Shown here: positions 6,657 through 63,299 of the stretch, in pieces
Layout of the letters: each line of letters starts with the position of its first letter
Position numbering within the stretch: the first letter of the stretch is position 1
Assembly (NCBI GenBank): GCA_030390025.1
Contig: CM059434.1
Coordinates: 15,438,001-15,502,000, forward strand
Source: Squalus acanthias
Lineage: Eukaryota
Length of the DNA: 64,000 nt
Direction: 5' to 3'
The notes under the pieces: generated by a model
The model's input: only the letters and a program-made list of their open reading frames with translations
What the model was told of the DNA's origin: nothing
The model's database searches: none
Program-made: the position numbers and the translations under genes

Positions 6657-9600
6657 CATAGAAACATAGAAGATAGGCTGATCATCCAAACTCAGTACCC
6701 TGTACCTGCCTTCTCCCCATATCCCTTGATACCTTTAGCTTTAAGAAATATATCTAACTCATTCTTGAATATATTTAATGACTTGGCCTCAACTACCTTC
6801 TGTGGTAGAGAATTCCACAGGTTCACCACTCTCTGGGTGAAGAAATTCTTCCTGATTTCTGTCCTAAATGGCTTACCCCTTATCCTTAGATTATGACCCC
6901 TGGTTCTGGACTCTCCGAGCATCGGGAACATTCTTCCTGCATCTAGTTTGTCCAGACTGTCAGAATTTTATATGTTTCGATGAGATCCCCTCTCATTCTT
7001 CTATACTCCAGCGAGTATAAGCCCAATTGACCCAATCTCTCCTCATATGTCATTCCTGCCATCCCAGGTATCAGCCTTGTGAATCTTCGCTGAACTCCTT
7101 CCATGGCAAGAACATCCTTCCTCAGATAAGGCAACCAAAACTGCACACAGTACTCAAGGTGTGGTCTCACCAAGGCCCTGTACAACTGCAGCAGGACATC
7201 CCTGTTCCTATACTCAAACCTTTTCGCTATGAAGGCCAACATACCATTTGCCTTCTTCACCGCCTGCTGCACCTGCATGCTTACTTTCAGCGACTGGTGC
7301 ACAAGGAAACCCAGGTCTCGTTGCACTTCCCCTTCTCCCAATCTATTGCCATTCAGATAATAGTCTGCCTTTCTGTTTTTGACACCAAAGTGGATAACCT
7401 CGCATTTATCCACGTTATATTGCATCTGCCACGCTTCTGCCCACTCACCCAACTTGTCCAAATCATCCTGGAGTTTCTCGGTATCCTCCTCGCAGCACAC
7501 ACTCCCACCCAGCTTTGTGTCATCTGCAAACTTGGAGATATTACATTTAGTTCCCTTATCTAGATCATTAATGTATATTGTGAATAGCTGGGGTCCAAGG
7601 ACCCCACTAGTCACTGCTTACCACTCGGAAAAAGACCCATTAATTCCTACTCTCTGCTTTCTGTCCGCCAACCAGTTCTCTATCCAAGTCAATACCTTGC
7701 CCCCAATCCCATGTGCCTTAACTTTACACGCTAATCTCTTATGCGGGACCTTATCGAAAGCCTATTGAAAGTCCAAATACACCACATCTACTGGTTCTCC
7801 CTTATCTATTTTCCCAGTTACATCCTCAAAAAATTCCAGTAGATTAGTCAAGCACGATTTGCCTTTTGTAAATCCATGTTGACTTTGTCCGATCCTGTCA
7901 CTGTTTTTCAAGTGCTCAGCTATTACATCCTTTATAATGGACTCTAGCATTTTCCCCACTACCGATGTCAGGCTTACCAGTCTGTAATTCCCCGCTTTCT
8001 CTCTACCACCCTTTTTGAATAGTGGGGTAACATTAGCTACCCTCCAATCCATGGGTACAGTTCCAGATTCCATCGAATGTTGGAAGATGATCAGCAATGC
8101 ATCTACTATTTCTAGGGTCACTTCCTTAAGTACCCTAGGATGTAGATTATCAGACCCTGGGGATTTATCGGCCTTCAATCCCGTCAATTTCCCTAACACC
8201 ATTTCCCTGCAAATACTGATTTCTTTCAGTTCCTCCCTTTCATCAGACCATATGTTCTCCAACATCTCTGGGAGGTTATTTGTGTCCTCCTTTGTGAAGA
8301 CAGAACCAAAATATGCATTTAATTGGTCTGCCATTTCTTTGATCCCCATTATAACTTCCCCCGCTTCTGACTGCAAGGGACCTACACTTGATTTCACTAA
8401 TCTTTTTCTCTTCACATATCTATAAAAGCTCTTACAGTCAGTTTTTATGTTCCCAGCAAGCTTACTTTCATATTCTATTTTCCCCTTCTTAATTAATCCC
8501 TTTGTCCTCCTTTGTTGAATCCTAAACTGCTCCCAATCCTCAGGGTTACCGCTTTTTCTGGCCAATTTATATGCCCTCTCCTTGAATCTTATGCTATCCC
8601 TAATTTCCCTTGTTCGCCACGGTTGAGTCACCCTTTTTGTTTTATTCTTATGCCACACTGGGATGAACAAATTCTGTAGTTCATCCATGCAGTCTTTGAA
8701 TGTTTGCCATTGCCTATCCACCGTCAACCCCTTGAGTGACATTCCCCAATCAATCCTACCCAATTTGCGCCTCATACCATCGTAGTTTCCTTTATTTAAA
8801 TTCAGGATCCTAGTCTCTGATTCAACCACTTCACTCTCCATCCTAATGAAGAATTTTATCATATTATGATCACTCTGACCCAAGGGGCCTTGTACAACAA
8901 GATTGCTAATTAATCCTTTCTCATTACATAATACCCAGTCTAAGATGGCCTGATCTCTGGTTGGTTCCTCGACATATTGTTCCAGAAAACCATCCCGTAA
9001 ACATTCTAGGAATTCCTCCTCCACAGTATTTTTACTAATTTGGTTAGCCCAATCTATATGTAAGTTAAAGTCACCCATGATGACTGCTGTGCCCTTACTG
9101 CATGCTTTTCTAATTTCCCTTTTAATGTTGTCCCCAACCTCCGTATTACTGTTTGAAGGTCTATATACCACTCCCACTAATGTTTTCTGCCCCTTGTTAT
9201 TTCTCAGTTCTACCCATACAGATTCCGCATCATCAGAGCTAATATCCTTCCTTTCAATTGTGTTAATCCCCTCTTTAACCAGCAATGCTACCCCACCTCC
9301 CTTTCTTTTTTGCCTATCTTTCCTAAATATTGAATAACCCTGGATGTTGAGTTCCCAGCCTTGGCCACCCTGGAGCCATGTTTCTGTAATCCCAATCAAA
9401 TCATATTCATTTACCTCTATTTGCGCAGCTAATTCATCCACCTTGTTCCGAATGCTCCTTGCATTAAGGCACAAAGCCTTCAGGCTTCTTTTTTTAATGC
9501 TCTCAGCCCTATATGAATTATTATTTACTGTGACCATGTTTGATTTAAACCGTTGAGTTCTTTGCCTTCTACTTTTGTTTTTCTCCTTCCTGTCTTTAAC

Positions 9601-9913
9601 TTTTATCCTTGTTTCCCTTTCTTCTGTCTCCCTGCTCAGGTTCCCAACCCCCTGCCACTTTAGTTTAAACCCTCCCCAACAGCACTAGCAAACACTCCCC
9701 CTAGGACATCGGTCCTGGCCCTGCCCAGGTGCAGACCGTCCCATTTGTACTGGTCCCACCTCCCCCAGAACCGGTTCCAATGTCCAAGGAATTTGAATCA
9801 CTCCCCCTTGCACCATTCCTCTAGCCACGTATTCATTTGAAATATCCTCCTATTTCTACTCTGACTAGCACGTGGCACTGGTAGCAATCCTGAGATTACT
9901 ACCTTTGAGGTCC
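6657..9913 (-). mobile_element. Young 5'-truncated CR1 LINE: ORF1 C-terminus plus ORF2 (APE endonuclease and RT), disrupted
   Basis: ORF 7762-9537 has APE motifs (LNARS, ITETW, GDFN, LDWVL, SDH) and the RT N-terminus. ORF 6943-7614 has FADD and HLEYCVQFW. 9660-9913 gives the SGNH-esterase ORF1 tail (ISGLLP...DGLHL). Ends in a (ttctatgt)n tail. Premature stop at 7762 and a small deletion near 7600. Confidence 0.95.
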
Positions 9914-13777: not shown

Positions 13778-15050
13778 TAATGTCATCTTGGATAGATTAG
13801 AAAAGCTCAAAATTGATAGGGCTCCAGCTCCAAATAATATCCATCCAAGGGTGATTAAAGAGATGGGACAGGTGCTCTGTGAGCCCCTTGCCCGTATCTT
13901 CAATAGTTCAATAGAGTCAGGGAGAGTTCCCTTAGACTGGAAGCTAGCTCATGTAGTTCCTATTTTCAACAAAGGGGACAAACCAGAGCCAGGGAACGAT
14001 AGGCCCATCTGCCTGATATCCATTAGTGGGAAGATGCTCGAAGGAATCGTAAGAGATGCCTTTTATGATCACTGGGAAAGGGAAGGGCCTATTAGAAATT
14101 CACAACACGGGTTGTGATAAGGTACCTCACACTAGGCTACCTCTCAGAATAGAATCTTGTGGTATCAGCAGAAATTTGAAACGCTGGATTAGGAATTGGC
14201 TCCAATCCCACAGCCAAAAAGTTGTAGTTAACAAATGTGGTTCAGCTTAGAGACGGGTTACCAGTGATGTTCCCCCAGGGGTCGGTCCTAGGCCCGCTAC
14301 TCTTCACAGTCATAGAGTCATAGTCATAGAGCCATAGAGGCATAACGGCACAGAAGGAGGCCATTCAGCCCATCGAGTCCATGCCGGCTCTCTGTCAGTC
14401 CCATTCTTTATTAATGACCTCGACAGCGGTGTTGGGATTACAGTGAGTAAGTTTGCAGATGATACCAAAATCTGTGCAAGGGTTAAGACAGTAGAGGAAT
14501 GCAATCAAATCCAAAAAGATTTAGATGTGCTAGGGGAGTGGGCCACACAATGGCAAATGGTGTTTAATTTAGATAAATGTAGTGTCATGCATGTTGGTAG
14601 GGCCAACACAGAGTACACATATCATTTGCAGGGAACAATACTGAAAGAGGTTGAGAGAGAAAAAGATCTTGGTGTTATTGTGCCCAGATCACTGAAGGCT
14701 CATGACTAATGTAGAGAAACTGCAGCTAAAGCTAACAAGGTATTGGGTTGTATTAATAGAACCATTCAGTATAAATCAAACATCACCATTTTGTCACTAC
14801 ACAGGTCGCTGGTCAGACTGCATCTAGAATACTGTGCCCAGTTTTAGTCCCCCCTCACAGGGGTTAATATAGTGACCTTGGAAATGGTCCATAGGAGAAC
14901 TACAAGACTGATCCCCAGCTTAAAAAACCTCAGCTGCTCGGATAGGCTCAAGGACCTTGGTCTATTTACTGTAGCCATGATGTGAACTGGGGTGGATAAA
15001 TGTGAGAAGTCGCACAACACCAGTTTATAGTCCAACAGCTTTATTTGAAA

Positions 15051-15087
15051 TCACAAGCTTTCGGAGCGCTGCTCCTTCATCAGGTGA
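15051..15087 (-). ncRNA. Minimal type I hammerhead ribozyme motif
   Basis: Minus strand UCAC-CUGAUGA-A-GGAGC-agc-GCUCC-GAAA-GC-UU-GUGA: conserved core, 5-bp stem II, 4-bp stem I. Confidence 0.75.
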
Positions 15088-15111
15088 AGTCTCTTGTGAC
15101 TCTCAGTGACT

Positions 15112-15148
15112 TCACCTGACGAAGGAGCAGCGCTCCGAAAGCTTGTGA
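15112..15148 (+). ncRNA. Minimal type I hammerhead ribozyme motif
   Basis: UCAC-CUGACGA-A-GGAGC-agc-GCUCC-GAAA-GC-UU-GUGA. Palindromic AAGCUU in place of stem III. AATAAA just downstream. Confidence 0.75.
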
Positions 15149-15475
15149 TTTCAAATAAAGCTGTTGGACTATAACCTGGTGTTGTGCGACTTCTCACATT
15201 TATTTACTGTAGAGCAGCATAGACTTAGAGATGGCCTGGTCGAGGTCTACAAGATACGTAAAGGGCTGGTATAGCATCCCTATTGAAAGATTATTCCAGT
15301 TTAACAGACGTGGGAATACCAGAGGACACAAGTTTAAACTATGGAAGAGTAGGAATAGACTGGGCATTAGGTCGTTCTTCTCCTCCCGGAGAGTGGTGAG
15401 CTTCTGGAATACATTTCCAGCTGGTGAGGTGGGTGCTGACTCTGTGCGTTTTCGTCAAGAGGGAGCTGGACTGGT

Positions 15476-28959: not shown

Positions 28960-29409
28960 CTTTTTTTCTGATTGGCGGGGGGGGGGGGGAATTCCCCCAA
29001 AGTCGAAGCGCAAGCCTTCGAAAACCAAGCTCGGGGGACGTTCTCGGACTTGTCTGAACACGAAACTCTGAGACTTTTCTGATTGACAGTTCCGTTGACC
29101 AATGCAAAAAAGCTAACTGAGCCTTAGACCACCGCCTCAACCGGAGCTGGGAGCCAATGGGAAGAGGAAGGGAGGGCCACGCCCCAAAAACTAAAGTTGG
29201 GAAGTGAAGTTTGGACTTGCAAAAAAAATTCCCCTTCGGCACGATGACGCGAGAAGGGCGATTATAAGAAGTGACCTCACGGTATCATCAACGGCAGAAC
29301 AGGCGGAAGTTAGTTTCTTATTGAAAGGGCTTTTTTTTTGGTTTGTTGTTGCTTCTGTGTTTTCTGAAACATCGCGTGTGAGTCTTCCTGCGAGCACTTG
29401 TCAGTTTCA
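28960..29409 (+). promoter_or_regulatory. BAX proximal promoter / 5' UTR
   Basis: Unique, CpG-enriched sequence. CCAAT boxes at 28971 (reverse), 29099 and 29154. Sp/KLF box gccacgcccc 29176-29185. kB palindrome GGGAATTCCC 28987-28996. p53 half-site 29046-29055. TGACG 29245. ETS gcggaagt 29303. Confidence 0.7.
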
Positions 29410-33108: not shown

Positions 33109-33157
33109 ATTCACTAAACGAGACTCTAAATAGACAATCTGGAGCACTCTTCCGTAG
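33109..33157 (+). CDS. BAX: BAX exon 2 (49 nt)
   Basis: ttttttcag acceptor, AG|gttggt donor. DSLNETLNRQSGALFRR aligns to human SSEQIMKTGALLLQG. Phases 1/2. Confidence 0.85.
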
Positions 33158-34169: not shown

Positions 34170-34752
34170 TGTGTCAGCTGTGGCTCAGTTGGTAGCACAC
34201 TCGCTTCTGAGTCAGAAGGTTGTGGGTTCAAGTCCCACTCCAGGGACTTGATGCGGAGATGCCGGTGAACTGATGAAGGAGCAGCAGCTCCGAAAGCTTG
34301 TGATTTCAAATAAAACTGTTGGACTATAACCTGGTGTTGTGCGACTTCTCACTTTTGTCCAGGGACTTGAGCACATAAACCTAGGCTGACACTCCAGTGC
34401 AGTGCTGAGGGAGTGCTGCACTGTCGGAGGTGCCGTCTTTTGGATGAGATGTTCAACCGAGGCCCCGTCTGCTCTCTCAGGTGGACGTAAAAGATCCCGC
34501 GGCACTATTTTGAAGAAGAGCAGGGGAGTTATCTCCGGTGTCCTGGGCCAATATTTATTCCTCAATCAACATAATAAAAACAGATTATCTGGTCATTATC
34601 ACATTGCTGTTTGTGGGACCTTGCTGTGTGCAAATTGGCTGCCGCGTTTCCCACATTACAACAGTGACTACACTCCAAAAATACTTCATTGGCTGTGAAG
34701 TGCTTTGAGACGTCCAGTGGTCGTGAAAGGCGCTATATAAATGCAAGTCTTT
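34170..34752 (+). mobile_element. SacSINE1-like DeuSINE with nested Penelope insertion
   Basis: Full head, core and tail. Confidence 0.9.
34252..34357 (+). mobile_element. Penelope pLTR insertion with hammerhead core (34270-34303)
   Basis: 13-bp TSD tccagggacttga (34239-34251, 34358-34370). ctgatga-a-ggagc..gctcc-gaaagctt-gtga, with the stem I 5' arm disrupted. Confidence 0.85.
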
Positions 34753-35031: not shown

Positions 35032-35193
35032 GTTTGTACTGGAGACAATCCACGAAGAAGATCCACAAGTCCCACTTGGACCAGAGGATCTTGGTGGTAC
35101 CGAGAATGAGATTGAGGATCCGACAATCAAGGAAATATGCAAGAGTTTGAAGAAAATTGGGGATGAGCTGAACAGAAATGCTGAACTGCAACA
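35032..35193 (+). CDS. BAX: BAX exon 3 (162 nt, BH3)
   Basis: tgcag acceptor, CA|gtatgt donor. LKKIGDELN BH3 motif (human LKRIGDELD). Confidence 0.95.
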
Positions 35194-35444
35194 GTATGTA
35201 ACTGGGCAATATATTAAGCATTTTCTTTATCCCAGTGTAGTAACTGACTTGGCAATTATTATAGTACGGTATTTGATTGGAGTCTCCCAGTTGCACCAAT
35301 GATAGAATGCTGGCGTCTCGGGTTGAGGATCTACTTTTCAAACTATCAACTTTAATTTACGTTTGAAGTCTGCTACCTCCCAACGGATGAGTTGGTCTGA
35401 TTCTGACAGGGCCACTGTGTGCCTCACATGATGTGCAATCTTTG

Positions 35445-35919: not shown

Positions 35920-37888
35920 AAAAGCGGTAGCCCTGAGGATTGGGAGCAGTTTAGGATTCAACAAAGGAGGACAAAGGGATTAATTAAGAAGGGGAAAATA
36001 GAATATGAAAGTAAGCTTGCAGGGAATATAAAAACTGACTAAGAGCTTTTATAGATATGTGAAGAGAAAAAGATTAGTGAAATCAAGTGTAGGTCCCTTG
36101 CAGTCAGAAGCGGGGGAAGTTATAATGGGGAACAAAGAAATGGCAGTCCAATTAAATGCATATTTTGGTTCTGTCTTCACAAAGGAGGACACAAATAACC
36201 TCCCACAGATATTGGAGAACATAGGGTCTGATGAAAGGGAGGAACTGAAAGAAATCAGTATTTGCAGGGAAATGGTGTTGGGGAAATTGACGGGATTGAA
36301 GTCCGATAAATCCCAGGGCCTGATAATCTATATCCTAGGGTACTTAAGGAAGTGGCCCTAGAAATAGTAGATGCATTGCTGATCATCTTCCAACATTCGA
36401 TGGAATCTGGAACTGTACCCATGGATTGGAGGGTAGCTAATGTTACCCCACTATTCAAAAAGGGTGGTAGAGAGAAAGCGGGGAATTACAGACCGGTAAG
36501 CCTGACATCGGTAGTGGGGAAAATGCTAGAGTCCATTATAAAGGATGTAATAGCTGAGCACTTGAAAAACAGTGACAGGATCGGACAAAGTCAACATGGA
36601 TTTACAAAAGGTAAATCGTGCTTGACTAATCTACTGGAATTTTTTGAGGATGTAACTGGGAAAATAGATAAGGGAGAACCAGTAGATGTGGTGTATTTGG
36701 ACTTTCAAAAGGCTTTCGATAAGGTCCCGCATAAGAGATTAGCGTGTAAAGTTAAGGCACATGGGATTGGGGGCAAGGTATTGACTTGGATAGAGAACTG
36801 GTTGGCGGACAGAAAGCAGAGAGTAGGAATTAATGGGTCTTTTTCCGAGTGGCAGGCAGTGACTAGTGGGGTACCGCAGGGTTCGGTCCTTGGATCCCAG
36901 CTGTTCACAATATACATTAATGATCTGGATAAGGGAACTAAATGTAATATCTCCAAGTTTGCAGATGACACAAAGCTGGGTGGGCGTGTGTGCTGCGAGG
37001 AGGATACTGAGAAACTCCAGGATGATTTGGACAGGTTGGGTGAGTGGGCAGAAGCGTGGCAGATGCAATATAACGTGGATAAATGCGAGGTTATCCACTT
37101 TGGTGTTAAAAACAGAAAGGCAGTCTATTATCTGAATGGCAATAGATTGGGAGAAGGGGAAGTGCAACAAGACCTGGGTGTCCTTGTGCACCAGTCGCTG
37201 AAGGTAAGCATGCAGGTGCAGCAGGCGGTGAAGAAGGCAAATGGTATGTTGGCCTTCATAGCGAAAGGGTTTGAGTATAGGAACAGGGATGTCCTGCTGC
37301 AATTGTACAGGGCCTTGGTGAGACCACACCTTGAGTACTGTGTGCAGTTTTGGTTGCCTTATCTGAGGAAGGATGTTCTTGCCATGGAAGGAGTTCAGCG
37401 AAGATTCACAAGGCTGATACCTGGGATGGCAGGAATGACATATGAGGAGAGATTGGGTCGATTGGGCTTATACTCGCTGGAGTATAGAAGAATGAGAGGG
37501 GATCTCATCGAAACATATAAAATTCTGACAGGTCTGGACAAACTAGATGCAGGAAGAATGTTCTCGATGGTCAGAGAGTCCAGACCAGGGGTCATAATCT
37601 AAGGATAAGGGGTAAGCCATTTAGGACAGAAATGAGGAAGAATTTCTTCACCCAGAGAGTGGTGAACCTGTGGACTTCTCTACCACAGAAGGTCGTTGAG
37701 GCCAAGTCATTAAATATATTCAAGAATGAGTTAGATATATTTCTTAAAGCTAAAGGTATCAAGGGATATGGGGAGAAGGCAGGTACAGGTTACTGAGTTT
37801 GGATGATCAGCCATGATCTCATCGAATGGCGGAGCAGGCTCGAGGGGCCGAATGGCCTACTCCTGCTCCTATCTTCTATGTTTCTATG
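35920..37888 (+). mobile_element. Young 5'-truncated CR1 LINE in BAX intron 3
   Basis: 416-aa RT ORF 36352-37602 (GVPQGSVLG, FADD). Nearly identical to 6657-8560 on the opposite strand. tttaaa on both flanks is a likely TSD. Confidence 0.95.
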
Positions 37889-38459
37889 TTTAAAGGCCCT
37901 ATAAAATGCAAGTTGTTGTTTGATCTTGTTAGGAAAGGAAAAAGACAAACAAATTATCATGATTCTTGGCCTAAATTTTCATCCTTGTTTTCCAATCCCT
38001 CCATGGCTTCACCCCTCCCGAGCACTGTAACCTCCTCCAGCCCAACAATCTTCCGAGATCTCTGTGCTTCTCCAATTCTGGCTTCTTGCACAACCCTGAT
38101 TTTAATTGCTCCACCATTGGCGCCAATGTCTTCAGCAGTCTAGGCCCTTTTTTGACCATCATAGCTCACATGCAATTATTGGCTATTTGGGCTATTATGG
38201 AACTTTACCCCAACATTAGTCCACACTTTCAGGAGTGCAGGCAAAGTAGATGAATTATTGTTAATCTTAGTTCAATCTCGCAAGCTCGGACTGCAGTCGC
38301 TTTCAAAACTAACATATGACGTGTTAGCATGTTCAAGGCTACAGAAGCTTAGCAAAAATTCTTCTATGCATGTACTGTTTTTCTTTTAGAGATATTAGAA
38401 AACATTAAACTACAACAGGTAACTAAAATTCTCTTTACTTAAATGTTTTCTGATAACAG

Positions 38460-38595
38460 TGTAATCGAGGCTGTTCCGATTGAAAACATCCAAGAAGTAT
38501 TATACAAAGTGGCTGAGCAGATATTAGTTACTGACGGCTTGAACTGGGGACGAATTGTAACCTTCTTCTATTTTGCTGGCAAACTTGTTTCTAAG
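38460..38595 (+). CDS. BAX: BAX exon 4 (136 nt, BH1)
   Basis: aacag acceptor, AAG|gtaagg donor. DGLNWGRIVTFFYFAGKLVSK. Confidence 0.97.
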
Positions 38596-40550: not shown

Positions 40551-41403
40551 GTTATTTTCCCCCCTGCTGCAAAGTCTTTTGAGGGAGGCAATTTTAACCC
40601 ACTCCACCCATCAGGCACGGAGCGAGCGCGCATTAAAATAGCTGCGCAAAGACTTGCTGCCCTATTCCTGCTGGAATTCGCCCCCCCCCGCCCCCCCCGC
40701 CATCTTAACTAGGCTCTTTTTTCTTTTAGGCGGCCGAGTCATCTGCCTGACTAGGCGGTAGTCTTATTATGTGTGCTAGTCGAGGTCCGACGATGTCATT
40801 AGAACCCCAATGGCATTTTAACGGCCTAGTACTCCGTAAAGCCTACCCAGGAAGAAGAGGAGGCTCTTTGAGGCAAGTCAAAAACTGTCCTTTAATCGGG
40901 CCAGGGAGAGCAGGCAGGCAGGGGGAGGAGGGGGCTTCCGGGCCCCGCAATTTGACTTGCCTGAAGCCTCTTTCTGTCCGTTTTAGACTGGCAGCTAGCT
41001 GGCCAATGGGATGTAACTGAGGCTCGGGAGTTTAAAATAAAAGCCCAGCACTCAAACTAATGTTGTTGGGCGGGTTAGATGCTCGCTTCACCTCCCGCCC
41101 ACCTCCTGAAACCCGCTCACAGTTAGAATTACGTGTAAACATTAGGCAAGAAGAGAGTCAGACTTGGCAATGATACCACCCATGGTTTGCCTGCCAACAC
41201 TCTGTGCTTGTCAATAATAACACAAGGTACTAAAGAGTGGGTTGCGCCTGATGAGCCGTATCCAGCAAAAAATCAACAACTTCAGGAGAGAACGGGAAGG
41301 GAGAACAGGAGGATGGGCGCCCTCCTCTTTGTAGATTTGAAATAATAGATAGAGGGATAAGTAGATAATGTTGCTTTTCATTAATTTTGCCATTCTTTTG
41401 CAG

Positions 41404-41505
41404 GCACTGAAAAATCTGAAAGCAATGATTCAACCTATAATAAATTGGTCTTTAGATTTGATTCAAACCCGTGTTATCCCATGGATCGAGCAACAAGGAG
41501 GATGG
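41404..41505 (+). CDS. BAX: BAX exon 5 (102 nt, BH2)
   Basis: ttctttttgcag-type acceptor ending at 41403, TGG|gtaagt donor. WIEQQGGW. Confidence 0.97.
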
Positions 41506-47677: not shown

Positions 47678-50230
47678 CATGGGTTTCTTGAGCAGTATGT
47701 AACTGAACCGACCAGGGGGCAAGCAACCTTAGATCTGGTCCTGTGTAACGAGACAGGATTAATTAAAAATGTCCTAGTAAAGGATCCCCTTGGAATGAGT
47801 GACCATAACATGGTTGAATTCCATATTCAATTAGAGGGTGAGAAGGTTGGATCTCAAACAAGCGTGCTAAGCTTGAATAAAGGAGACTATGAAGGTATGC
47901 GAGCGGAATTGAGTAGAGTGGATTGGGAAAATAGATTAAAGGGTAAGACGACACATGATCAGTGGTGTACATTCAAGGAGTTATTTTACAACTTCCAAAA
48001 AAAATATATTCCACTGAAAAGAAAAGGGTGTAAAAGAAAGGACAGTCATCCGTGGCTAAGTAAAGAAATTAAGGATAGTATTCGACTAAAAACAAGGGCA
48101 TATAAGGTAGCGAAATCTAGTGGGAGGACAGAGGATTGGGAAAACTTTAAAAGGCAGCAAAAAGTAACAAAAGATTGATTAAGAAAGGGAAGATAGATTA
48201 TGAAAGTAAATTAGCAAAAAATATAAAAACAGATAGTAAGAGTTTTTATAGTTATATAAAAAGAAAAAGGGTGGCTAAAGTAAATGTTGGTCCCTTAGAG
48301 GATGAGACCGGGAAATTAATGGTGGGAAATATGGAGATGGCAAAAACACTGAATGAATATTTTGTATCAGTCTTTACAGTAGAGGACACTAAGAATATCC
48401 CAACACTGGACAAACAGGGGGCTATAGGGGGAGAGGAGCTAAACACGATCAAAATCACTAAGGAAGTGGTACTCGGTAAAATATTGGGACTCAAGGCGGA
48501 ATAAATCACCTGGACCTGATGGCTTACATCCTAGAGTCTTGAAGGAAGTGGTGGTAGGGATTGTAGATGCATTGGTAATAATTTTTCAAAACTCCCTGGA
48601 TTCCGCTAAGGTCCCGGCAGACTGGAAAACTGCTAATGTAACACCCTTATTTAAAAAGGGCAGTAGACAGAAGGCTGGTAACTATAGACCGGTTAGCCTA
48701 ACATCTGTGGTAGGTAAAATTTTGGAGTCCATTATTAAGGAAACAGTAACAGGACATTTGGATAATCATAATTTAATAGGACAAAGTCAGCATGGTTTTA
48801 CGAAGGGGAAGTCATGTTTGACAAATTTGCTGGAGTTCTTTGAGGAAGTAACATATAGAGTGGATAAAGGGGAACCAGTGGACGTAGTGTATTTAGACTT
48901 CCAAAAGGCATTTGACAAGGTGCCACACAAAAGATTATTGCTTAAGGTAAAAAATCACGGGATTGGGGGTAATATTCTGGCATGGATAGAGGATTGGCTA
49001 TCTAACAGAAAGCAAAGAGTTGGGATAAATGGTTCATTCTCAGACTGGCAATCAGTAACTAGTGGTGTTCCACAGGGGTCAGTGCTGGGTCCCCAACTCT
49101 TTACAATCTATATTAACGATTTGGAGGAAGGGACCAAGTGTAACATATCAAAATTTGCAGATGATACAAAGATGGGAGGGAAAGTAGTGAGTGAGGAGGA
49201 CATAAAAAACCTGCAAGGGGACATAGACAGGCTAAGTAAGTGGGCAGAGATTTGGCAGATGGAATACAACACTGGAAAGTGTGAGGTGATGCACTTTGGC
49301 AGGAAAAATCCTAGAGCAATTTATTATCTTAATGGCAAGAAACTGGAGAGTACTGAAGTGCAAAGGGATCTGGGGGTCCTGGTGCACGAAACTCAAAAGG
49401 TTAGTATGCAGGTGCAGCAAGTGATTAAGAAGGCAAATGGAATGTTGGCTTTCATTGCTAGGGGGATAGAATATAAAAATAGGGAGGTATTGCTTCAGTT
49501 GTACAAGGTATTGGTGAGACCGCACCTGGAATACTGCATACAGTTTTGGTGTCCTTACTTAAGGAAAGACATCCTTGCTCTCGAGGCAGTGCAAATAAGG
49601 TTCACTCGGTTAATACCGGGGATGAGGGGGTGGTCATATGAGGAGAGGTTGGGTAGATTGGGGCTCTACTCATTGGAGTTCAGATGAATGAAAGGCGATC
49701 TTATTGAAACATATAAGATTGTGAAAGGGTTGGATCGGGTGGATGCGGGGAGGATGTTCCCGATGACGGGTGAGACTAGAACTAGGGGACATAGTCTTAG
49801 AATAAGGGGCTGCTCTTTCAAAACTGAGTTGAGGAGGAACTACTTCACTCAGAGGGTGGTAGGTCCATGGAATATGCTGCCACAAAAAGCTGTAGAAGCT
49901 ACATCATTAAATAAATTTAAAACAGAAATAGACAGTTTCCTAGAAGTAAAGGGCATTAAGGGTTACGGGGAGCGGGCAGGAATTTGGACATGAGTCTAGG
50001 TTCGGATCGGTCATGGCCCTGTGGGTAGTGGAGCGGGCCCAGGGACCGTGTAGCCTGATTCTGCTCCTATTTCGTGTGTGCAATTCTGTTAGATGCAGGA
50101 GATGGTTCTGTGATAGATAGTAGATTGGCGGTTAGGATCAGATCAGCCATGATCTTATTGAATGGCGGAGCAGGCTCGAGGGGCCGATTGGCCTACTCCT
50201 GCTCCTATTTCTTATGTTCTTATGTTCTTA
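47678..50230 (+). mobile_element. 5'-truncated CR1 LINE (third subfamily)
   Basis: APE end (LDLVL, SDHNMV) and RT ORF 48539-49687 (GVPQGSVLGP, FADD), with stops and a frameshift. Doubled 3' UTR. Confidence 0.95.
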
Positions 50231-56483: not shown

Positions 56484-57903
56484 GCCCTGCCTAAGGTTTA
56501 GGCTGCATTTATAGTAAAACTGCCGTGTTGGTGCGAAGTGAAACTGGTTGCTGGAATAAAAACACCCATTTAGCCAATTGTTCGGTGCGGGACAATGAAC
56601 CGAAGTAATATCCCACTGAAGGAGCCTCTGCACTTTGATTTGGTTCCTAATGTGCCGAATTTGCCCATTGGCACTGTAGGTGGATTTAGTTCACTGGAGC
56701 TATAGTGAATGCACAGACTGCGTTGTTACGTGATTTGCGCATGAAATGAATGTGGTGCAAATAAGACATTCATATTCTGCCTCTTCTCCTTTCTCAAACA
56801 AAATGGCCCGGAACTTGCGGTCCTGATGACGGCGAACTGGCGGCATTCGTTGTCATTTCGCCTTTGAAACTGACCGCAACTTCAGGATTTAGCGCACGCG
56901 CAGCCTAACGTGGAAATCCTGAAGTTGCGGTCTACTGAGTCTCAAATGCTTGGTCGTGAAGAAAGTGGCTTTTTAATTCTTTAATTCTAGAAAACCAATA
57001 AACAAAAGAAAAGATGTTCGCCTCTGGGAGCTGGATTTGAATCCTATCTGGATGCAATGAAAGCTTCCTCCCTTTTTATGTTTTATATTTTCCTGTTTGT
57101 TAATTTTGGACCAAAGAGGTAAATGTGAGTATGATGTGAATGGAGAAAAATATACCCCCTCTGGATGTAAGGATTCTACAGGAAATTAATTTCGGACCAT
57201 GTTAACCCAGGTATTATACGCTCACGCCCAGACCCATAAAATTAACTAGAATCTGGTACGAATTTTGCAGCCTCATCGGAGGCCACAAGAATTACTGCTG
57301 TGGAAAACTGGCTTATATTCATGCAGTGTGGGGTAATCCTCTGATGATCCACATTGATGGCTGGGGGTGGTGGGGGGGGGGAACAATCAAATGTACAGAA
57401 TGAATAAAGTCTATTTGATATTCTAGTCCATTCACAGACCTTGTCCGCTCACCAGAGGTTCTTTTATCCCTGTTACCAAAAGTAAATCAAGCGAAGCTTC
57501 CGAATGTTGTTGCGGCTTGACATTATTCATCTGAGACCAGGTGCCTTCTTCGGCATGACAGTTCCATTGGTTCCAGCAGTTCGGGAAACATCCAATTGTA
57601 CTGATCCTTGTAACACTCAACTCCATTGCAAATCAGATATTTTCAAATATCTCTGTACCCTCACCAGACTCCAACATCTGCCTAACCTCTGTCCCTGGCT
57701 GAACGAGACTGTCTGCAACCTCAGCTTCCTATTGGACCACGAGATGAGCGTCCGAACCCATATCCTCTCCGTTACAAAGATCTCCATAACCTCTATCTCA
57801 GCCCATCTGCCGCTGAAATCCTCATCCAAGCTTTCCTCACCTCCAGACTTGACTATTCCAATGCCCTCATAGCCGACCTCCCATCCTGCACCCACTGTAA
57901 ACT

Positions 57904-58141
57904 GCCGAGGTGTGATAAAAGGCAGTCAGAAAGATTAACTGTAGTCGTCTGACATTGTACGCTGCACAGGCATTGTTCTCTGTCTATATATGCTTTGCCG
58001 ATTCGTATTCCTTCACTTCACCTGACGAAGGAGCAGCAGCTCCGAAAGCTTGTGATTTCAAATAAAACTGTTAGACTATAACCTGGTGTTGTGCGACTTC
58101 TCACTTTTGTCCACCCCAGTCCAACACCAGCATCTCCGCAT
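57904..58141 (+). mobile_element. Penelope pLTR insertion (longest copy) inside an L2 fragment (about 57620-58330)
   Basis: 11-bp TSD cactgtaaact (57893-57903, 58142-58152). Order: TATA-like ctatata, hammerhead, AATAAA, then end catctccgcat. Confidence 0.85.
58018..58055 (+). ncRNA. Minimal type I hammerhead ribozyme motif
   Basis: UCAC-CUGACGA-A-GGAGC-agca-GCUCC-GAAA-GC-UU-GUGA. Confidence 0.75.
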
Positions 58142-58609
58142 CACTGTAAACTTCAGCTCATTTATAACTCTGGTGCATGTATGTTATTCCTCATCAAGTC
58201 CCACTCGTCATCACCCCTGTCCTTGTTGACCTACCTTTACTCCTGGTTCCGCCCAACACCTCAAATCTAAAATTCTCAACTTTGCATTTAAATCCCTCAT
58301 GGCCTCACCCCTTCCTCTCTCTGTAACCTCCTCCAGCCCTGCAGCCCCCTCCTAGAAACATAGAAAAATAGGAGCAGGAGTAGGCCATTCAGCCCTTCGA
58401 GCCTGCTCCACCATTCAATATGATCATGGCTGATCCTCTATCTCAATACCATATTCCTGCTCTCTCCCCATACCCCTTGATGCCTTTTGTGTCTAGAACT
58501 CTCTCTTCCTCTGATTATAGCCGCTTGTGCCTCCGCCTCCCTTTGCCCCACCGCTGGCAACCGTGCCTACAACGCCTAGCATCCACCCTCTGGAATTCCT
58601 TCCCCAAAC

Positions 58610-62335: not shown

Positions 62336-62672
62336 CTCCTCTTCCCTTCTCAGGGAATGATTCTCAGCTACGCCTGCGTATTGAACTCCACCAATAGAGA
62401 TAGGGCGTATTCTGCTGTGCAGGGCAGCCTGGGCACAGCACATCTCCATTGAAAGGGGAAATGTGCAGAATGCAAAAATGAGTTGGCCGGGTTCAGTCTA
62501 GGGAATGGAGAGAAGCACATCGGGAAAAAGGGGTGCGGGCTGAGTGATAATGTATTAAGAAAATGATTCCTGAGAGCCCGGGACCTCAGCCGATACTTTA
62601 GTAAGCTTAAGAAAATGATTGTTTTTAACATTGAAATAGTGATTCATTCTGTTGTATTTTAACTATAACTGA

Positions 62673-62871
62673 TGCGGAGATGCTGGTGTTGGACTGGGGT
62701 GGACAAAAGTGAGAAGTCGCACAACACCAGGTTATAGTCCAACAGTTTTATTTGAAATCACAAGCTTTCGGAGCGCTGCTCCTTCGTCAGGTGATGAAGG
62801 GGCAGCAGCTCCGAAAGCTTGTGATTTCAAATAAAGCTGTTGGACTATAACCTGGTGTTGTGCGACTTCTC
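62673..62871. mobile_element. Penelope-derived inverted-pLTR insertion; hammerhead on minus strand at 62758-62794
   Basis: 12-bp TSD aactataactga (62661-62672, 62872-62883). Inverted arms join inside the hammerhead core. Confidence 0.85.
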
Positions 62872-63299
62872 AACTATAACTGAAACGTTGGATTTACAAT
62901 AATGAACTGATATTCAGGGCTAAACTGACCCGGGCCTCCTGGACCAGTGGGTCTTTTCTAGTCTGTCATTGTGTGTTTATATGATTGGATGATTCCCCCC
63001 CCCGACCTAGCAGAAATCCCAACATGTTTCACCTTCCCTGCAGCCAGGGGAAAGCATGTTTGCATGGTGCAGGAGTGCTGATATGGAAGCGGGAACCTAA
63101 TCGATTGTTGTTAGGAAAGGGACTCCAGACAAATTGCCAGCGTTTTTATTTCTACTCATTTGACTCTTCGGCCGAAATGGCCAACGCCCTCTGGAGAGAA
63201 CGGCAAGGTGCTGCTGTGATGTTGCTGATCCCGTGGGGTGGACCCTCCAGGGATAACTATAAATAGTTCAGGCGCCAGCTCCTTTACGGAAATGACACT

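What the first reader, a model, noticed from the sequence alone, without database searches (positions are those of the whole stretch)
14975..15200. Family of tiny hammerhead-ribozyme retro-insertions (retrozyme-like Penelope derivatives) with clean TSDs
Seen: four insertions of one family (14975-15200, 34252-34357, 57904-58141, 62673-62871), about 100-240 bp each, with 11-13 bp TSDs. They contain UCAC-CUGA(C/U)GA-A-GGAGC..GCUCC-GAAAGCUU-GUGA followed by AATAAA. Among the four intact motifs the differences fall at the free N7 position and in loop II. Stem III is reduced to the palindrome AAGCUU. Established: PLE minimal type I hammerheads with palindromic stem III are thought to cleave as dimers, and an extra A after A9 is tolerated in natural hammerheads. 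Inference: four insertions in 64 kb suggest a very abundant ribozyme-bearing element, and the sense copy in BAX intron 2 has a broken stem I. Caveats: the cleavage triplet is CUU, and paired motifs lie on opposite strands, so cis-dimers would not form.
Basis: partly seen in the sequence, partly recalled or inferred. Interest (0 to 1): 0.72.

Follow-up and report, generated by a model that had tools for sequence, protein, structure and literature searches.

The report
Truncated shark Penelope retrotransposon ends
The four small inserts are cut-short copies of the end of a very abundant protein-coding jumping gene (a Penelope-like element) in a shark genome, not a separate ribozyme mini-element; their exact edges suggest that many were likely copied from the capped, uncut front of its RNA, which would make the long-unclear role of this element's hammerhead ribozyme testable.

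Summary
In detail: four insertions (226, 106, 238, 199 bp) with exact 12, 13, 11 and 12 bp TSDs and a minimal type I hammerhead motif. The retrozyme reading fails. They are 5'-truncated or inverted ends of an autonomous 3.1-kb Penelope-like element (intact 892-aa RT + GIY-YIG ORF, Neptune/Nematis-type linker) in a shark; one 26-mer occurs 97,107 times. Full-length copies carry two same-strand hammerheads 3.1 kb apart, so a cis dimer is possible. Across subfamilies the stems covary and position 17 is U or C. Inverted copies pair one long and one short 3' end (143 of 147 with a TSD). Beyond what my searches found in print: 3,112 of 22,669 arms start at one A, 30-32 nt after a TATA box and 7 nt before the hammerhead core, preceded by a non-templated G (A: 366). 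This points to run-off copies of capped, uncleaved RNA. Only about 1% start at the cut site. The scan noted these inverted shark insertions before (eight notes); I found no note on the cap signature. Cleavage is untested.

The parts
14975..15200 (.). Insertion A: inverted pair of element 3' ends, inside a LINE fragment
14963..14974 (+). A, left TSD (12 bp); right copy at 15201-15212
14975..15091 (-). A, long-end arm (small internal deletion in the tail). Starts with non-templated G at 15091 before the +1 A at 15090
15051..15087 (-). A, complete minimal hammerhead motif; predicted cut between 15055 and 15054
15092..15107 (.). A, 16-bp filler between the arms
   Evidence: sequence
15108..15200 (+). 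A, short-end arm. Starts with non-templated G at 15108 before the +1 A at 15109; AATAAA at 15154-15159
15112..15148 (+). A, complete minimal hammerhead motif; predicted cut after 15144
34252..34357 (+). Insertion B: short-end arm from about 34270 (stem I 5' strand missing), preceded by a 16-bp inverted stub of the long end (34252-34267). Inside a SINE, in a BAX-like intron, sense
34239..34251 (+). B, left TSD (13 bp); right copy at 34358-34370
57904..58141 (+). Insertion C: simple 5'-truncated long-end copy with TATATAT (57985), +1 A (58015), hammerhead motif (58018-58055, predicted cut after 58051), AATAAA (58061) and tail
57893..57903 (+). C, left TSD (11 bp); right copy at 58142-58152
62673..62871 (.). 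Insertion D: inverted pair. Long-end arm 62673-62794 (-) with complete motif 62758-62794; short-end arm 62792-62871 (+) lacking C3. The arms differ at three subfamily-variable sites plus a CpG
62661..62672 (+). D, left TSD (12 bp); right copy at 62872-62883
33109..33157 (+). Likely BAX-like exon 2 (splice signals and phase fit; numbering by the recalled human BAX layout)
35032..35196 (+). BAX-like exon with BH3; further exons at about 38453-38592 (BH1) and 41403-41505 (BH2)

Best explanation
The four inserts are 5'-truncated, mostly inverted copies of the hammerhead-bearing end of an autonomous Penelope-like retrotransposon (likely Neptune clade), and many such short copies were likely reverse-transcribed from the capped, uncut front of the element's RNA. 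Shown: parent element and ORF, two fixed 3' ends (at the start codon, and 30-42 nt before it), 12-14 bp TSDs, one long plus one short end per inverted insertion, and a pile-up of 5' ends at one A preceded by a non-templated G. Inferred (about 0.75): Pol II starts at that A, 30-32 nt after a TATA box, so the hammerhead lies at +4 to +40, AATAAA at +46, the short priming site near +88 and the ATG at +128; the G is the copied cap. Inferred (about 0.7): the endonuclease nicks both strands 12-13 nt apart, each nick primes one cDNA at one of the two sites, and the two cDNAs are joined head to head. Inferred (about 0.4): the ribozyme acts only as a dimer of the two pLTR copies of a full-length transcript, likely protein-assisted, giving the circular or end-joined template needed for long copies. 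The window's stubs are dead by-products.
For: Copies share the 3' end and extend 232 to >=1738 bp (30 of 30 top-hit loci). 4 of 93 scored matches have a stop-free 921-codon frame, giving 892 aa from Met, flanked by pLTRs; window copies are 93-99% identical to L212. RVT_1 E=1.3e-8; DKG, YIDD, CX4CxxC and GIY-YIG-type motifs; nearest proteins are from sharks, up to 93% identical. In the unselected C1 sample 36 of 36 simple inverted pairs are long+short with a TSD; over all loci 143 of 147 pairs with an exact repeat >=8 nt, 112 of 143 being 12-14 nt. Base before the +1 A: G 3,112, A 366, templated C/T 19,191; one base further up G+A total only 514, 10 G and 10 A in 20 loci. 30 of 30 G loci are 5' junctions, 20 long-end and 10 short-end. 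Stem I pair C-G to U-A in 10 of 26 haplotypes, 97% of cells paired. Position 17: about 3,393 C, 583 A/G; U16.1 changed in only 344. Long copies also match the ORF start beyond their long end (15 of 71 for >=5 nt).
Against: No RNA 5'-end, poly(A) or cleavage data: only contigs were available, and 0 of 363 arms carry an A-run after AATAAA. In about 20 of 30 G junctions the G is also the partner arm's next base, so a one-base microhomology contributes. Most arm pairs are near-identical (36 of 54 with no difference at the scored sites), which fold-back copying also predicts. The dimer fold is not favoured by energy: -20.7 against -21.6 kcal/mol for two monomers, and the MFE dimer is a different duplex. 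A U4C subfamily exists (5 of 92 arms). Pfam GIY-YIG does not hit this protein directly. Neptune versus Nematis was not tested by a tree. Covariation counts are inflated by relatedness of the copies.
Confidence: 0.85

Rival explanations
1. A separate non-autonomous retrozyme-like family that spreads through small circular RNAs.
For: Short TSD-flanked inserts with a type I hammerhead. Retrozymes derive from pLTRs and occur in one chondrichthyan sampled (bioRxiv 10.64898/2026.07.22.740005). One 74-nt same-strand duplication at a rearranged junction (L107).
Against: Lengths form a continuum up to the full ORF. No short tandem unit among the 251 loci then held or among the 100 listed places of each. 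Ends follow the PLE tail rule.
Confidence: 0.05
2. The mirror half arises by self-priming or fold-back of one cDNA (proposed on an antisense template in PMC3846280), not by two target-primed cDNAs.
For: Arms are mostly identical (36 of 54 pairs without a scored difference; random re-pairing gives 48 of 54 discordant). Junctions are often palindromic or microhomologous.
Against: Both ends show microhomology between the TSD and the sense RNA continuation. Both arms of copy A start with the extra G. 5 of 54 pairs, including D, differ at two or more subfamily-variable sites. The long arm carries a 40-nt tail absent from the short arm. The Anolis protein cuts and extends both strands from two start sites (PMC11167929).
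Confidence: 0.2
3. The motif is kept as a fold that the element's protein binds or that controls translation; it rarely or never cleaves.
For: About 1% of arms start at the cut site with no clear peak (about 550, against about 455 one base downstream and about 185 one base upstream; estimates), while 14% start at the cap site. CUU triplet, U4C variant. PLE minimal hammerheads cleave weakly (PMC4209133), and the Anolis one is dispensable for insertion in vitro.
Against: Apart from U4C, the core positions show no shared variant in 40 long copies while N7 takes all four bases and loop II has 20 forms. Position 17 varies between U and C, as the NUH rule allows. The Anolis ribozyme does cleave with protein.
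Confidence: 0.3
4. The extra G marks a reverse-transcriptase pause at stem I with non-templated addition or microhomology, not a cap.
For: In about 20 of 30 junctions the G is also the partner's next base. A smaller cluster of ends lies at the stem I edge (9 arms at 4 nt before C3).
Against: The peak is 3 nt outside stem I, at an initiator-like TCA(+1)CTT 30-32 nt after TATATA. G:A is 8.5:1 there and 1:1 one base up. About 10 of 30 Gs are not in the partner. Untemplated G at full-length 5' ends is attributed to the cap in L1/SVA (PMC3287187).
Confidence: 0.2

Closest known systems
EN+ Penelope-like elements of the Neptune (or Nematis) clade (PMC8557442, passages; Pen2a_Av in PMC3846280, passages)
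   Same: Single RT + C-terminal GIY-YIG ORF, CX2-5CxxC linker, pLTR partial tandems, inverted 5'-truncated copy, 30-40 bp tail at one end, TSD, TATA plus TCACT initiator-like motif in the pLTR.
   Different: Shark family with about 97,000 exact hits. Most copies are tiny. The passages call the tail optional, whereas here one long plus one short end is nearly strict. A start site marked by an extra G was not found in my searches.
PAc, Poseidon from Anolis carolinensis (PMC11167929, parts 1-2 of 4)
   Same: Two internal RT start sites defining the tail; both strands cut; hammerhead cut about 90 nt upstream of the outer start site; uncut RNA used as template.
   Different: Poseidon clade. In PAc the ORF begins inside the hammerhead; here the ATG is 92 nt after the cut and coincides with the long end.
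Minimal type I hammerheads of metazoan PLEs (PMC4209133, parts 1-2 of 4)
   Same: Extra nucleotide between 9 and 10.1, G10.1-C11.1, palindromic 15.2-16.2, 4-bp stem I, tandem motifs about 3 kb apart and opposite-strand pairs close together.
   Different: Stem II is 5 bp. No shark family appears in the text read; supplementary figures were not seen.
Non-LTR retrozymes (PMC7229834, passages; bioRxiv 10.64898/2026.07.22.740005, parts 1-3 of 5)
   Same: Small, non-coding, type I hammerhead, pLTR-related.
   Different: Retrozymes are tandem units each with a ribozyme; these are solo or inverted truncations of a coding element.

Membership tests
EN+ Penelope-like element | Single ORF with RT followed by GIY-YIG endonuclease | tested here: met
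   892-aa ORFs in L212-L215; RVT_1 above cut-off. GIY-YIG has no direct Pfam hit, but VYLI...YIGET aligns with relatives carrying PF01541.
EN+ Penelope-like element | Direct pLTRs forming partial tandems | tested here: met
   L031, L212, L214, L215, L231; repeats of 110-775 bp, 94-100% identical.
EN+ Penelope-like element | 5' truncation, inverted copy and 30-40 bp tail at one end | tested here: met
EN+ Penelope-like element | Target site duplication | tested here: met
   11-13 bp in the window; 112 of 143 pairs at 12-14 bp
Neptune/Nematis clades | CX2-5CxxC linker before the endonuclease, and CCHH motif | tested here: met
   CHGNLCKTC at 753; two Cys after VYLI and two downstream His conserved; definition from PMC8557442
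Neptune (against Nematis) | Placement in an RT phylogeny with named references | not tested
   No named reference sequences held. Neptune and Poseidon are the groups reported in vertebrates.
Minimal type I hammerhead of PLEs | Core CUGANGA / GAAA / NUH, extra base after A9, G10.1-C11.1, palindromic stem III | tested here: met
   exception U4C in 5 of 92 arms
Minimal type I hammerhead of PLEs | Self-cleavage as a dimer or with protein | not testable with these tools
   No raw RNA reads; genomic 5' ends show no peak at the cut
Non-LTR retrozyme | Tandem units of 150-1000 nt, each with a type I hammerhead | tested here: not met
   None in 251 loci except one 74-nt duplication at a junction; not a genome-wide scan
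Non-LTR retrozyme | Non-autonomous element with its own defined unit | tested here: not met
   Variable-length truncations of a coding element, 93-99% identical to it
Non-LTR retrozyme | Expressed as monomeric circular RNA | not testable with these tools
   Only contigs of runs guessed to be RNA

The most novel reading that the evidence does not exclude
The pLTR is organised like a retroviral LTR: promoter, then a repeated segment from the cap through the hammerhead to the poly(A) signal, then a leader with two priming sites. Both target nicks prime in the leader, so tens of thousands of tiny inserts are integrated 'strong-stop' cDNAs ending at the cap. The hammerhead dimer between the two repeated segments cuts and circularises, or docks, the RNA ends so that long and partial-tandem copies can be made. 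The ribozyme would be a switch between capped mRNA and full-length template.
Probability: 0.3. Interest if true: 0.75.

Novelty: new member of a known kind. Interest (0 to 1): 0.47.

Why it matters
As sequence it is an ordinary, known kind of element. Its value is statistical: about 100,000 ends give a precise genomic record of how a PLE primes, where its RNA likely starts, and which RNA form is copied. PMC8557442 states that hammerhead function in EN+ PLEs is unclear. A likely cap site 36 nt before the predicted cut, with intact ORFs in the same genome, turns that question into a few direct assays.

Tried and rejected
Rfam scan: no hammerhead model hit; the miRNA hits reflect A's palindrome. 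Peak of 5' truncation at the cut site as proof of in vivo cleavage: not found (junction versus substitution judged by eye on 30 loci each). Crossover test of circle versus strand transfer: subfamily blocks are tightly linked, uninformative. Energy support for the dimer: none. RNA evidence: only contigs, no starts or ends; small-share runs not used. Poly(A)-tailed copies: 0 of 363 arms. Upstream-length estimates are inflated for inverted copies and were not used for them. The repeat regex mostly caught the native sequence and gives no count. A first exon 2 candidate near 29275 was dropped for lack of a donor site. No solved structure matches the ORF. PMC11875169 gave nothing on CUU rates, so 'CUU is a weak triplet' is recalled, not checked. 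Intron depletion of sense copies could not be tested without annotation; the sense AATAAA would confound it.

Full report
Observation. B interrupts a SINE whose other window copies show the site once. Four of six motifs are complete and fold with stems I and II; the two truncated ones do not form stem I. The BAX-like gene is real (BH1 exon: Pfam Bcl-2 E=1e-7, best PDB hits BAX). B lies sense between a likely exon at 33109-33157 and the exon at 35032. 'Intron 2' rests on the recalled human layout; exon 1 was not located.

What it is. The genome is 3.7 Gb and the nearest proteins are from sharks. An exact 26-mer of the 3' end occurs 97,107 times and a hammerhead 28-mer 51,625 times, with reversed controls at 0. 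In the first 3.1 Mb of C1, 109 arms form about 71 insertions, so roughly 70,000 insertions is my inferred lower bound. All 30 top hits end at the same base and reach 232 to >=1738 bp upstream. Following them gave pLTR-ORF-pLTR elements of about 3,120 bp. Four of 93 scored matches have a stop-free 921-codon frame, 892 aa from Met. [quoted passage not shown] By PMC8557442 (passages) that linker marks Neptune and Nematis. The window copies are 93-99% identical to L212. They are the short end of a continuum, not retrozymes, which are tandem units (PMC7229834 passages; bioRxiv 10.64898/2026.07.22.740005 parts 1-3). No such array was seen in 251 loci.

Ends. The 3' ends are bimodal: a long end at the start codon and a short end 30-42 nt earlier. 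In the unselected C1 sample 36 of 38 adjacent opposite-strand pairs are one long plus one short end with a TSD; the other two were two separate insertions and one inverted-plus-tandem full-length copy. Over all loci, many chosen by variant patterns, 151 of 160 pairs are long+short. Of 147 with an exact repeat of 8 nt or more, 143 are long+short; the rest are copy A (tail deletion), one end at +17 and two short+short. No long+long pair has a TSD. Of 33 unpaired C1 arms, 24 are short-ended and 9 long-ended, and some carry a tiny inverted stub of the other end, as B does. The tail and inversion are known (PMC3846280 passages), and the Anolis protein primes at two sites and extends both strands (PMC11167929 parts 1-2). 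I infer priming from both nicks. Arms usually come from the same subfamily: 18 of 54 informative pairs differ at one or more scored sites and 5 at two or more, against 48 and 37 for random pairing (some loci were selected for a variant). Copy D differs at three non-CpG sites, which suggests two template segments.

Hammerhead. In 40 long copies the region upstream of the motif is highly diverged, while the core has no shared variant except U4C. N7 takes C, G, A and T; loop II has 20 forms among 92 parsed of 115 arms (the parse itself requires an intact core, and the 23 unparsed arms are mostly truncated). In 26 haplotypes 97% of stem cells pair; one stem I pair changes C-G to U-A in 10, and one stem II pair does the same in 1. 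The terminal stem I pair is broken in 6, and relatedness inflates these counts. Genome-wide, position 17 is non-T in 3,976 arms, of which 583 are A or G and about 3,393 C; U16.1 is changed in 344. Full-length elements hold two same-strand motifs, so a cis dimer is possible, as proposed in PMC4209133 (parts 1-2). Folding energy does not favour it.

Which RNA is copied. If cleaved RNA were a main template, 5' ends would pile up at the cut. Estimated junction counts are about 550 at the cut, 455 one base downstream and 185 one base upstream, about 1% of arms; a weak excess is not excluded. The peak is instead 7 nt before C3: 18 arms in my loci, 16 preceded by G. Genome-wide, for this subfamily group, the preceding base is G in 3,112, A in 366 and the templated C/T in 19,191; one base further up, G plus A total 514. 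All 30 G loci examined are junctions. The script found the G absent from the partner arm in 12, two of which are reference artefacts (L252, L272), equal to the partner's next G only in 10, and part of a GA overlap in 8. TATATA begins 30-32 nt upstream in 5 of 6 pLTRs, the sixth being truncated. An untemplated 5' G is attributed to the copied cap in L1 and SVA (PMC3287187 passages). Both arms of copy A begin this way. Relative to this +1 the cut falls after +36, AATAAA at +46, the short end at +88 and the ATG at +128.

Mechanism. Likely a capped RNA starts just before the hammerhead, and priming in its leader runs off at or before the cap, giving the tiny copies. Long copies also match the ORF start beyond their long end (position +5: 0.44 against 0.16 expected, n=71; short copies 0.39, n=141), so they too seem primed at a pLTR-ORF junction yet continue upstream of +1. 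That needs a circle, a strand transfer or a read-through multimer. I favour ribozyme-made circles at about 0.4; the crossover test was uninformative. L031, whose 5' pLTR begins near +1 and differs from its 3' pLTR, fits a linear read-through template.

Novelty. Element, ribozyme, tail and inversion are known. Ten paper searches returned no description of a cap signature in PLEs or of this shark family; most were seen as listings only, subscription journals and Repbase are not covered, and the supplements of PMC4209133 and of the preprint were not seen. PMC6155905 was read as passages. The scan's earlier notes report the inverted shark insertions, twin priming and mixed arms; I reached those readings before that look-up. 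A search for a cap or start-site note returned nothing. Verdict: new member of a known kind, interest 0.47.

Noticed in passing
L033 and L034 (whole); L231 1500-7700: Long inverted copies with 1.0-1.2 kb arms, and a full-length tandem copy with a 2.85-kb inverted arm: the same architecture as window copies A and D at larger scale.
   Followed up: yes
L037, L169, L081, L256 inversion junctions: Short units from the first bases of the likely transcript are repeated two or three times at some junctions, as if the RT realigns at the template's 5' end (telomerase-like) or repair copies them. No valid count was obtained.
   Followed up: partly
L031 2775-6010; L214: Full-length copies whose two pLTRs differ in subfamily-variable sites; in L031 the 5' pLTR begins at about the likely start site.
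   Followed up: partly
L212 stem II position 10.3, many loci: An A-to-G variant in stem II recurs in at least six loop backgrounds (11 of 92 arms); recombination, homoplasy or RNA editing are all possible.
   Followed up: no
L302: One arm ends 74 nt inside the ORF, far from both usual ends.
   Followed up: no
L032 1347-1955 and 3470-4093: Retroviral env-like fragments (Pfam TLV_coat E=2.4e-5 for the second), interrupted by a LINE on the opposite strand with a 548-codon frame.
   Followed up: no
window 7762-9684 (-), 36310-37602 (+), 48443-49687 (+): LINE fragments with long open frames (APE endonuclease and RT; RT; RT), the second inside a BAX-like intron.
   Followed up: no
window 34309-34314: Insertion B places a sense AATAAA in the BAX-like intron, 720 bp before the next exon.
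   Followed up: no
C1 sample, e.g. L161 and L167: Independent insertions reuse the same target site within other repeats (identical 12-bp TSD in separate loci), suggesting target-sequence preference.
   Followed up: no
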